Origin: Escherichia coli
Lineage (GTDB): Bacteria; Pseudomonadota; Gammaproteobacteria; Enterobacterales; Enterobacteriaceae
Length of the DNA: 64,000 bases
Assembly: GCF_030013205.1 (NCBI RefSeq)
Contig: NZ_CP122648.1
Strand: one strand, 5' to 3'
Part shown: piece by piece, positions 61,227-61,417 of the stretch
Layout: every line of letters begins with the position of its first letter
Numbering within the stretch: position 1 is the first letter of the stretch
Translations under genes and position numbers: made by a program
Notes under the pieces: model-generated
Databases searched by the model: none
Told to the model about the DNA's origin: nothing
What the model saw: the letters and a program-made list of their open reading frames with translations, nothing else

Positions 61227-61255
61227 TTGACTTTAAGATCATTAAATTGTAATAA
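61227..61255 (+). promoter_or_regulatory. candidate sigma70 promoter for the ncRNA/RT operon
   Basis: TTGACT-N17-TAATAA with TG near -14; predicted start lies at the first inverted repeat. Confidence 0.4.
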
Positions 61256-61262
61256 TTCAAAA

Positions 61263-61397
61263 GGATGGGGCAGGTTTTTCCTCTTGTGCATGCAAGGGCG
61301 GCTCTGATAATGAACAGTAATATTTTACTGTTGAGCTTATGCTCACTGATCCTGCCGGGCAGGATGTTCAATGATTCCAATATATCCTGCCCCTTCC
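61263..61397 (+). ncRNA. candidate structured ncRNA (retron msr/msd-like) bounded by inverted repeats
   Basis: ggatggggcagg (61263-61274) and cctgccccttcc (61386-61397), 11/12 complementary; internal hairpins aacagtaa-tatt-ttactgtt (61313-61332) and atcctgcc-g-ggcaggat (61349-61365); no ORF. Confidence 0.3.
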
Positions 61398-61417
61398 GCT
61401 TTTAAAAAGGATCTTTT

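What the first reader, a model, noticed from the sequence alone, without database searches (positions are those of the whole stretch)
61227..61417. Promoter plus inverted-repeat-bounded structured RNA upstream of the membrane-protein/RT genes: possible retron msr/msd
The 222-bp gap before the membrane-protein gene has no ORF. It contains a -35/-10 pair (TTGACT-N17-TAATAA), then a 12-nt segment (ggatggggcagg) whose near-perfect reverse complement (cctgccccttcc) recurs about 110 nt later just before the RBS. Between them are a perfect 8-bp hairpin (aacagtaa-tatt-ttactgtt) and a palindrome atcctgccgggcaggat. The ggcagg/cctgcc core recurs four times. Terminal inverted repeats enclosing stem-loops are the hallmark of retron a1/a2 and msr-msd; the inter-repeat distance is short but within the range of compact retrons.
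Basis: seen in the sequence. Interest (0 to 1): 0.7.

Follow-up and report, generated by a model that had tools for sequence, protein, structure and literature searches.

The report
Template RNA of DRT10 phage defence
This gap encodes the already published 137-nt non-coding RNA of the Eco3 DRT10 anti-phage system, which scaffolds and templates the downstream reverse transcriptase to make tandem 9-nt DNA repeats; it is not a retron.

Summary
That covers the promoter, the 12-nt terminal inverted repeat, the 8-bp hairpin, the palindrome and the four GGCAGG/CCTGCC copies. The retron reading is wrong.

The two downstream genes are a SLATT_5 membrane effector and a UG17 reverse transcriptase, which together define the DRT10 defence system. 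The RT is identical, over all 399 residues I could compare, to OKX54664. That is the Eco3DRT10 enzyme studied by Tang et al. 2025 and Ramirez et al. 2026.

If RNA nucleotide 1 is placed at window 61263, all 19 checked nucleotides whose identity those papers name fall on the stated base, and the 137-nt RNA ends at the terminal stem. The template loop reads CAAU-GAUUC-CAAU, the reverse complement of the published cDNA repeat GAATCATTG.

I found the element upstream of SLATT in 24 homologous loci. The five-helix fold shows strong covariation: 17 of 35 pairs have compensatory changes and 96.9% of cells are paired.

Published mechanism: two RT monomers bind one RNA. DNA synthesis primes on the C-terminal Ser456 and copies the template repeatedly, much as telomerase does.

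Verdict: already known. Rfam has no family for this RNA, and RefSeq annotates nothing over it in the genomes listed.

The parts
61227..61256 (+). Sigma-70 promoter of the ncRNA: -35 TTGACT (61227-61232), 18-nt spacer, extended -10 TGtAATAAT (61248-61256). It ends 6 nt before RNA nucleotide 1.
   Evidence: Consensus scan gives 10/12 matches with TG. A -10-like hexamer, often preceded by TG, ends about 7 nt before the basal stem in 16 of the 25 homologues, including Pseudomonas (TGTAGAAT).
61263..61399 (+). DRT10 ncRNA (Eco3 type), 137 nt. It is both scaffold and template for the reverse transcriptase.
   Evidence: The ends are inferred by laying the published numbering of the 137-nt RIP-seq species on the window. 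U15, U62, U64, U110, C116, A117 and U119 were checked by script. U43, G44, G86, G104, U105-106, C107, G111 and A120-U123 were read from the sequence. Together these are 19 nucleotides, and all fall on the stated base (papers read). Fold z = -4.66. Covariance-model hit of 142 bits, E 4e-34, the only one in the 64-kb window, from a model whose training alignment includes the window sequence.
61263..61274 (+). SL1 (basal stem), 5' arm (nt 1-12)
   Evidence: Inverted repeat I1. Eight of 10 basal-stem pairs show compensatory changes. It is 75% G+C, as stated for Eco3 SL1.
61279..61301 (+). SL2 (nt 17-39)
   Evidence: MFE fold. Three pairs covary. Two U.G pairs are invariant in 25/25 sequences, which fixes the + strand as the RNA strand.
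61302..61312 (+). Loop A (nt 40-50, CUCUGAUAAUG). It lies in the active site of the second RT monomer and gives only a short abortive product in published assays.
   Evidence: Unpaired in the MFE fold and almost invariant in 25 sequences. U43 and G44 match the positions used by Ramirez et al..
61313..61332 (+). SL3 (nt 51-70), the perfect 8-bp hairpin
   Evidence: (I6). It is 25% G+C, as stated for Eco3 SL3.
61333..61344 (+). SL4 (nt 71-82), a 4-bp hairpin
   Evidence: helix 5, one covarying pair. Published as dispensable in vitro.
61349..61365 (+). SL5 (nt 87-103), the 'palindrome'. It is the template boundary element.
   Evidence: (I7). 100% of cells paired and two covarying pairs. Published role in stopping reverse transcription at C107.
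61366..61385 (+). Template loop / Loop B (nt 104-123, GUUCAAUGAUUCCAAUAUAU)
   Evidence: Unpaired 20-nt loop. This equals the 'twenty substitutions' scanned in Tang et al..
61369..61377 (+). Template A-B (CAAU-GAUUC, nt 107-115), copied into the cDNA repeat 5'-GAATCATTG-3'
   Evidence: Exact reverse complement of the published Eco3DRT10 repeat. Sequence read.
61378..61381 (+). A' realignment segment (CAAU, nt 116-119)
   Evidence: C116, A117 and U119 match the published positions. An A...A' direct repeat at this position is kept in 23 of 25 homologues with varying sequence.
61386..61397 (+). SL1 (basal stem), 3' arm (nt 124-135)
61418..61969 (+). SLATT_5 two-transmembrane effector gene (183 aa)
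   Evidence: PADLOC RTasSLATT E 7.9e-57. NCBIfam SLATT_5 132.9 bits against a cutoff of 60. It differs at one residue (Q109R) from the SLATT of the Eco3DRT10 source locus.
61947..63317 (+). UG17 (DRT10) reverse transcriptase gene, 456 aa from the ATG at 61947. YVDD is at codons 222-225 (62610-62621). The priming Ser456 is the last codon (63312-63314). The gene overlaps SLATT by 23 nt.
   Evidence: PADLOC RT_UG17 E 5.9e-159. Identical to OKX54664 (Eco3DRT10 RT) over the 399 residues displayed. RefSeq uses this start. S456, R371, K385 and Y388 are invariant in 24 homologues.

Best explanation
Window 61263-61399 is the non-coding RNA of a DRT10 (UG17 RT + SLATT) anti-phage system, specifically the published Eco3DRT10 model system.

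Shown here:
- The RNA has its own promoter.
- The fold and the A-B-A' repeat in the 3' loop are conserved next to SLATT-RT genes across Enterobacterales, Aeromonas and Pseudomonas.

Taken from published experiments on the identical RT and ncRNA:
- Two RT monomers bind one RNA.
- The RT primes on the hydroxyl of its own C-terminal Ser456, with the first nucleotide placed opposite C116 in the pre-catalytic cryo-EM structure, and copies CAAUGAUUC up to C107, where SL5 halts it.
- The nascent DNA then unpairs and re-anneals to the downstream CAAU (A'). The cycle repeats, giving kilobase-long protein-linked single-stranded (GAATCATTG)n.
- RNA, RT and SLATT are all needed for defence.

Inferred or proposed in the literature, not shown: accumulation of the cDNA is kept in check by host exonuclease I (SbcB) and perturbed by a phage SSB-like protein. 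When it accumulates, it is proposed to trigger the SLATT membrane effector.
For: - Gene identity: RT_UG17 at 527 bits and RTasSLATT; SLATT_5 above its cutoff.
- Identity to the model system: the RT is identical over 399 displayed residues to OKX54664, which the authors name as the Eco3DRT10 RT. They also describe the same two-residue start misannotation.
- Template: 61369-61381 is CAATGATTCCAAT, the reverse complement of the published repeat plus A'.
- Numbering: with nt 1 at 61263, all 19 nucleotides checked against the published numbering fall on the stated base. So do the 137-nt length, the 20-nt loop, and the 75% and 25% G+C of SL1 and SL3.
- Fold stability: z = -4.66.
- Conservation: the element was found upstream of SLATT in all 24 gammaproteobacterial loci examined.
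- Covariation: RNAalifold recovers the same five helices. Of 35 pairs, 17 have compensatory changes, and 96.9% of cells are paired against about 50% when partners are slid. No shuffle out of 500 reached the observed value on four of the five measures, and 1 of 500 on the fifth.
- Promoter: it sits at a fixed distance from the stem in most homologues.
- Module boundaries: flanking genes differ in every genus, so the module is ncRNA + SLATT + RT only.
Against: - Nothing here measures RNA, cDNA or defence in this strain.
RNA identity therefore rests on the nucleotide position matches, the template motif and the identical RT.
- The SLATT differs by one residue (Q109R) from the model locus.
- In silico, this allele can adopt a near-isoenergetic alternative fold.
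- The step from cDNA to SLATT activation is unresolved in the literature. The two groups disagree on whether infection lowers or raises cDNA levels, though they studied different DRT10 systems.
Confidence: 0.96

Rival explanations
1. Retron msr/msd. The terminal inverted repeat is a1/a2, a G after a1 is the branch point, and the internal hairpins are msr/msd stems copied into msDNA.
For: A terminal inverted repeat encloses stem-loops next to an RT gene. Several database records name homologous RTs 'retron-type reverse transcriptase'.
Against: - The RT classifies as UG17. The retron_St85_RT model scores 58.8 bits against a cutoff of 235.
- No Rfam family matches the region at all.
- There is no long msd hairpin; the longest internal stem is 8-9 bp.
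- The base after the 5' arm is U.
- A SLATT gene separates the RNA from the RT.
- Published biochemistry on the identical RT shows protein-primed, RNase-insensitive, tandem-repeat ssDNA from a 9-nt template.
Confidence: 0.01
2. Primarily a cis-acting 5' leader or attenuator of the SLATT-RT mRNA. The G+C-rich basal stem followed by CUUUU would terminate most transcripts and limit expression of a toxic membrane protein.
For: No other promoter-like site lies between the RNA and the SLATT start. The RNA's 3' end (61399) sits just before a TTTT run, and the SLATT ribosome-binding site follows about 8 nt after the RNA's end.
Against: - The U-run is absent in many homologues that keep the fold.
- The terminator scan did not call it.
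- The RT binds the RNA and copies it.
- In a related DRT10 system the ncRNA complements in trans.
- A leader role could coexist with the template role but cannot replace it.
Confidence: 0.02
3. A small protein-coding gene (for example the 46-aa ORF at 61265-61405), or a protein-binding DNA palindrome belonging to the prophage end.
For: Mechanical ORFs cross the gap. The locus lies at a prophage-host junction.
Against: - Element length varies from 120 to 143 nt, with indels that are not multiples of three.
- Substitutions are compensatory in helices.
- Invariant U.G pairs indicate selection on the RNA of the + strand.
- The element travels with SLATT-RT in non-prophage contexts.
Confidence: 0.01

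Closest known systems
Eco3DRT10 ncRNA (Tang et al. 2025, PMC12632851; Ramirez et al. 2026, bioRxiv 10.64898/2026.06.29.735271)
   Same: Same RT protein over all residues that could be compared. Same template CAAUGAUUC + CAAU, same 137-nt span, same five stem-loops, and the same base at all 19 numbered nucleotides checked.
   Different: One SLATT residue (Q109R). The full RNA sequence could not be compared letter by letter. Here it is seen in its native chromosomal setting, at the end of a lambdoid prophage beside prfC.
Other DRT10/UG17 ncRNAs (Eco1, Eco2; Escherichia sp. E3659 UG17-A, Sanchez-Nieto et al. 2026)
   Same: A tripartite ncRNA-SLATT-RT module. The RNA has a basal stem closing several stem-loops and an A-B-A' template loop next to the 3' arm. 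The product is tandem-repeat cDNA.
   Different: These RNAs have different primary sequences, numbers of stem-loops (six in Eco1 and E3659), repeat lengths (7-8 nt) and priming residue (Tyr in Eco1). My Eco3-type covariance model finds nothing next to RTs that are 32-35% identical.
DRT9 (UG28) ncRNA
   Same: A Class 2 UG RT with a similarly shaped ncRNA and protein-primed synthesis from a short loop template (stated).
   Different: The DRT9 template is a conserved poly-U tract giving poly-dA. Here the loop has a mixed 9-nt template and an A-B-A' repeat.
Retron msr-msd
   Same: A structured RNA closed by an inverted repeat, encoded beside an RT, serving as its template in an anti-phage system.
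   Different: It belongs to a different RT clade and has no long msd hairpin. The primer is a protein serine rather than a 2'-OH of a branching G. The product is an unbranched tandem repeat rather than a single-copy msDNA.
Telomerase RNA
   Same: A short template with an alignment segment (A') and a stem-loop boundary element (SL5), with repeat-addition processivity.
   Different: It is a bacterial immune function and is protein-primed rather than extending a chromosome end. The RNP is 2 RT : 1 RNA. Homology of the RNAs is not claimed.

Membership tests
DRT10 (UG17 RT + SLATT + ncRNA) | RT of the UG17 group with an intact YVDD catalytic motif | tested here: met
   PADLOC RT_UG17 E 5.9e-159, full-length match; the next best hit (Drt3a) scores only 127 bits. 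YVDD at residues 222-225 is invariant.
DRT10 (UG17 RT + SLATT + ncRNA) | Adjacent, co-oriented SLATT_5 two-transmembrane gene, tightly coupled to the RT gene | tested here: met
   RTasSLATT E 7.9e-57. NCBIfam SLATT_5 132.9 bits against a cutoff of 60. The genes overlap by 23 nt.
DRT10 (UG17 RT + SLATT + ncRNA) | [quoted passage not shown] | tested here: met
   Fold z = -4.66. Five helices are recovered by RNAalifold on 25 sequences, 17/35 pairs are compensatory, and no shuffle out of 500 reached the observed value on four of the five measures, 1 of 500 on the fifth.
DRT10 (UG17 RT + SLATT + ncRNA) | A-B-A' direct-repeat pattern in the loop just 3' of a stable stem-loop | tested here: met
   CAAU-GAUUC-CAAU at nt 107-119, 3 nt after SL5. 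The pattern is kept at the same place in 23/25 homologues. Each instance alone is not significant against shuffles.
DRT10 (UG17 RT + SLATT + ncRNA) | C-terminal hydroxyl priming residue (Ser or Tyr) | tested here: met
   The protein ends ...EEDISGIS. Ser456 is the last residue and is invariant in 24 homologues.
DRT10 (UG17 RT + SLATT + ncRNA) | RT binds the ncRNA and makes protein-linked tandem-repeat cDNA; all three parts are needed for phage defence | not testable with these tools
   Shown experimentally for the identical RT (OKX54664) in Tang et al. and Ramirez et al.. Not measured for this strain.
Retron | RT belongs to the retron clade | tested here: not met
   NCBIfam retron_St85_RT scores 58.8 bits against a cutoff of 235. 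The best PADLOC family is UG17. In the published RT tree, retron RTs form their own clade, separate from the clade that holds UG RTs including DRT10.
Retron | msd region: a long hairpin that is reverse transcribed once into msDNA | tested here: not met
   The longest internal stem is 8-9 bp. The published cDNA maps only to a 9-nt loop segment, repeated in tandem.
Retron | Priming from the 2'-OH of a conserved branching G next to the a1 repeat, giving an RNA-linked msDNA | not testable with these tools
   The sequence shows U, not G, after the 5' arm. Published assays on the identical RT show that product mobility is RNase-insensitive, proteinase-K-dependent and dependent on Ser456.
Retron | Match to a described retron ncRNA family | tested here: not met
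   No Rfam 15 family reaches even E = 1 in 60700-64000. All five hits have E of 3.1 or more and are unrelated eukaryotic or sRNA models.
DRT9 (UG28) | Conserved poly-U template loop and a UG28 RT | tested here: not met
   The Drt9 model scores only 69 bits. The template loop is GUUCAAUGAUUCCAAUAUAU, with no poly-U template.

The most novel reading that the evidence does not exclude
In its native prophage setting, the DRT10 module may be coupled to the SOS response. The DinI-like gene immediately upstream carries the only two CTGT-N8-ACAG LexA-box-like sites in the 64-kb window, and no terminator is predicted between it and the ncRNA. DNA damage or prophage induction could therefore drive read-through that raises ncRNA/SLATT/RT levels. 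Separately, the Eco3 allele's fourfold GGCAGG/CCTGCC repeat gives it a near-isoenergetic alternative fold, which could act as a switch. Neither idea appears in the parts of the DRT10 papers I read.
Probability: 0.1. Interest if true: 0.35.

Novelty: already known. Interest (0 to 1): 0.15.

Why it matters
The biology is remarkable. A bacterial reverse transcriptase adds tandem repeats from an internal RNA template much as telomerase does. But it has already been described, mutated at single-nucleotide resolution and solved by cryo-EM for this very RT and RNA.

What this check adds is practical. The RNA is essential for the system, yet Rfam 15 has no family for it, and RefSeq showed no feature over it in any of the 40 genomes listed. 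It is present in 187 of 5,426 complete E. coli genomes, about 3.4%. A scan will therefore keep rediscovering it, or mislabel it as a retron, until a model is deposited.

The check also records the native context (a cargo gene set at the end of a lambdoid prophage beside prfC) and a within-species template polymorphism.

Tried and rejected
- Rfam search of 60700-64000 at E up to 10 gave only chance-level hits and no retron or DRT family.
- I searched the Tang et al. supplement for the Eco3 ncRNA sequence and template. The Eco3 rows of Table S2 were cut when stored, so a letter-by-letter RNA comparison was impossible. I used the RT accession, the protein sequence and the numbered positions instead.
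- BLAST of the module against 50,697 phage records gave no match.
- A covariance model built from 25 Eco3-type RNAs gave no hit in seven alphaproteobacterial loci whose RTs are 32-35% identical. This agrees with the report that ncRNA models work only within subtypes.
- A PDB sequence search found no DRT10 entry in the copy held. The best hits were group II intron RTs at E around 1e-14.
- Alternative fold pairing the SL5 arms with the basal-stem arms: it is favoured in some length contexts for this allele. In most homologues the canonical SL5 and basal stem dominate the predicted ensemble, and only two (Photorhabdus caribbeanensis, Stutzerimonas) show appreciable downstream pairing of the SL5 3' arm. 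In Serratia the basal stem changes by compensation without SL5 following. I rejected it as a selected feature.
- Coding potential of the small ORFs in the gap was rejected.
- Significance of the A-B-A' repeat in single sequences: it is not significant against shuffles. Only its positional conservation carries weight.

Full report
**Observation**

The 222-bp gap (61196-61417) lies between a DinI-like gene and a membrane-protein gene.

- A 12-nt terminal inverted repeat: 61263-61274 and 61386-61397, 92% complementary, 111 nt apart.
- A perfect 8-bp hairpin at 61313-61332.
- An 8+8 palindrome at 61349-61365.
- GGCAGG at 61269 and 61358, and CCTGCC at 61351 and 61386.
- A promoter-like site: TTGACT, an 18-nt spacer, then AATAAT with an upstream TG, at 61227-61256.

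The 137-nt stretch 61263-61399 folds at -54 kcal/mol, against -37.7 +/- 3.5 for shuffled sequence (z = -4.66). Mechanical ORFs cross the gap, but they are not conserved.

**What the neighbours are**

- The 183-aa membrane protein is a SLATT_5 protein. PADLOC RTasSLATT gives E 7.9e-57, and NCBIfam SLATT_5 gives 132.9 bits against a cutoff of 60.
- The RT is UG17. PADLOC RT_UG17 gives E 5.9e-159 over its full length, and the next family scores only 127 bits.
- The retron model retron_St85_RT scores 58.8 bits against a cutoff of 235.

UG17 + SLATT + an upstream ncRNA is the DRT10 defence system. It is described in Tang et al. 2025 (PMC12632851), Sanchez-Nieto et al. 2026 (10.64898/2026.04.29.721553) and Ramirez et al. 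2026 (10.64898/2026.06.29.735271), found.

**Identity with the published model system**

The methods of Tang et al. name the Eco3DRT10 RT as NCBI OKX54664. They note that its annotated start carries two extra residues, so that S458 in the record is their S456. Their Table S1 prints that protein. The window's 458-aa ORF is identical to it over all 399 residues displayed. The SLATT differs at one residue, Q109R. RefSeq starts the RT at the ATG at 61947, giving 456 aa that end in Ser456.

The papers number the 137-nt RNA. If nt 1 is placed at 61263, every nucleotide I checked against that numbering falls on the stated base.

- U15 and U62 lie within U-runs, and U64 is the last U of a run.
- U43, G44, G86 and G104.
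- U105-U106.
- C107 at the 5' edge of the template.
- U110, G111, C116, A117 and U119.
- A120-U123.

These positions come from the sequence and the papers read.

Other details match too. The template loop is 20 nt, equal to the 'twenty substitutions' scanned in the paper. SL1 is 75% G+C and SL3 is 25%, as stated. The published cDNA repeat 5'-GAATCATTG-3' is the exact reverse complement of 61369-61377, and the following CAAT (61378-61381) is A'.

I could not compare the RNA letter by letter, because the Eco3 rows of the supplementary table are truncated in the held copy.

**Independent comparative evidence**

I collected 24 loci encoding RTs that are 58-95% identical to the window's RT.

- E. 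coli MS6193, fetched from a DNA match of 94.8% identity.
- Photorhabdus, Buttiauxella and nine Pseudomonas, Stutzerimonas or Pseudomonadaceae loci.
- Serratia, Xenorhabdus, Pantoea, Pectobacterium, Proteus, Aeromonas, two Klebsiella, Erwinia and Morganella.

Every one has the element at the same place upstream of SLATT, with nhmmer E-values from 1e-23 to 1e-43.

On the 25-sequence alignment, RNAalifold recovers the same five helices as the single-sequence fold.

- 17 of 35 pairs show compensatory double changes.
- 96.9% of cells are paired, against 48-54% when partners are slid by 1-3 columns.
- No shuffle out of 500 reached the observed value on four of the five measures, and 1 of 500 did on the fifth.

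Two U.G pairs in SL2 are invariant in all 25 sequences. On the opposite strand they would be A.C mismatches, so the + strand is the RNA strand.

The single-stranded segments GGCGGYUCUGAUAA (the 3' strand of SL2 running into Loop A) and CUGAUCC...GGAUGUUCA (SL5 and its flanks, including G86 and G104) are almost invariant. This fits the published RT contacts.

An A...A' direct repeat (CAA, TCAA, TTCAA, TCAAA and so on) occupies the same loop position in 23 of 25 sequences, with a variable B segment. Each instance alone is not significant against shuffles.

A -10-like hexamer, often with an upstream TG, ends about 7 nt before the basal stem in 16 of the 25 homologues, including Pseudomonas.

Flanking genes differ in every genus, so the conserved module is ncRNA + SLATT + RT.

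**How it works**

The architecture above is shown here. The steps below come from experiments on the identical RT and RNA, read.

1. The RNA is bound by two RT monomers in a pseudo-symmetric 2:1 complex.
2. Loop A sits in one active site and yields only a ~10-nt abortive product.
3. Loop B sits in the other active site. Synthesis is primed on the hydroxyl of the C-terminal Ser456. In the dNTP-bound cryo-EM structure the first nucleotide is placed opposite C116.
4. The RT copies the template up to C107, where SL5 stops it. SL5 is anchored by Arg371 on G104.
5. The DNA end then re-pairs with A' and the cycle repeats. The result is kilobase-long, protein-linked, single-stranded (GAATCATTG)n.
6. 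Defence against phages requires the RNA, the RT active site, Ser456 and SLATT.

How the cDNA activates SLATT is not settled. Work on a different DRT10 system implicates exonuclease I (SbcB) and a phage SSB-like protein. The two groups, working on different DRT10 systems, report opposite changes in cDNA level on infection.

**Why it is not a retron**

- The RT is outside the retron clade.
- There is no long msd hairpin.
- The base following the 5' arm is U.
- No Rfam family matches.
- The product of the identical enzyme is protein-primed and RNase-insensitive.

**Context and distribution**

The module sits next to prfC, after a DinI-like gene, at the end of a lambdoid prophage. Tail fibre, Lom and J genes follow it. 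It occurs in 187 of 5,426 complete E. coli genomes, always on the chromosome. No feature was annotated over the RNA in any of the 40 genomes listed. The PDB copy held has no DRT10 entry, and the phage collection has no match.

**Verdict**

The object is already known in detail, down to a cryo-EM structure. Interest is low as a discovery. It has some value as an annotation gap.

Noticed in passing
window 60888-60903 and 60916-60931: Two LexA-box-like motifs (CTGT-N8-ACAG) lie in tandem in the promoter of the DinI-like gene (60947-61195). They are the only two in the 64-kb window, where 0.61 are expected by chance. No terminator is predicted between that gene and the ncRNA promoter, so SOS-induced read-through into the DRT10 module is conceivable.
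   Followed up: partly
window 61269-61274, 61351-61356, 61358-61363, 61386-61391: The SL5 arms repeat the sequence of the basal-stem arms. This allele can therefore form a near-isoenergetic alternative fold, with SL5's 3' arm pairing with the basal 3' arm. The alternative dominates the predicted ensemble for a 133-nt trim and for the 163-nt context, while the canonical fold dominates for the 137-nt RNA. In most homologues the canonical fold dominates, so the alternative is probably incidental.
   Followed up: partly
window 61369-61381 versus L002 (6032-6225) and L033-L036: There is a template polymorphism within E. coli. The window (Eco3) allele is CAAUGAUUC-CAAU. All five sampled alleles at 95.8-97.9% identity have CAACGGUUC-CAAU, which shortens the A/A' homology to 3 nt and predicts a different repeat, GAACCGTTG. 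The same template occurs in Xenorhabdus, Klebsiella and Erwinia. Of the 187 genomes with the element, 154 fall in the 95-99% identity band, but only five of those were read.
   Followed up: partly
window 60754-64000; L001 and L002: The DinI-like gene and the DRT10 module lie between host prfC and prophage tail-fibre, Lom and J genes. They are therefore cargo at the end of a lambdoid prophage integrated beside prfC. In MS6193 the DinI-like gene is frameshifted while DRT10 is intact.
   Followed up: partly
window 61227-61417 compared with 61418-63317, across E. coli genomes: The non-coding region is at least as conserved as the coding genes. It is 95.8% identical in genomes where the whole 2.1-kb module is about 94.7% identical. 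This fits selection on the RNA.
   Followed up: no
window 63425-63727 (- strand): A 100-aa ORF lies just downstream of the RT. RefSeq annotates it as a hypothetical protein. It has no NCBIfam match, and its role is unknown.
   Followed up: partly
L028 1-295 (Aeromonas contig): A second RT-domain gene (weak RVT_1 hit) ends about 650 nt upstream of the DRT10 SLATT gene in the Aeromonas locus. This may be another RT-based system clustered with DRT10.
   Followed up: no
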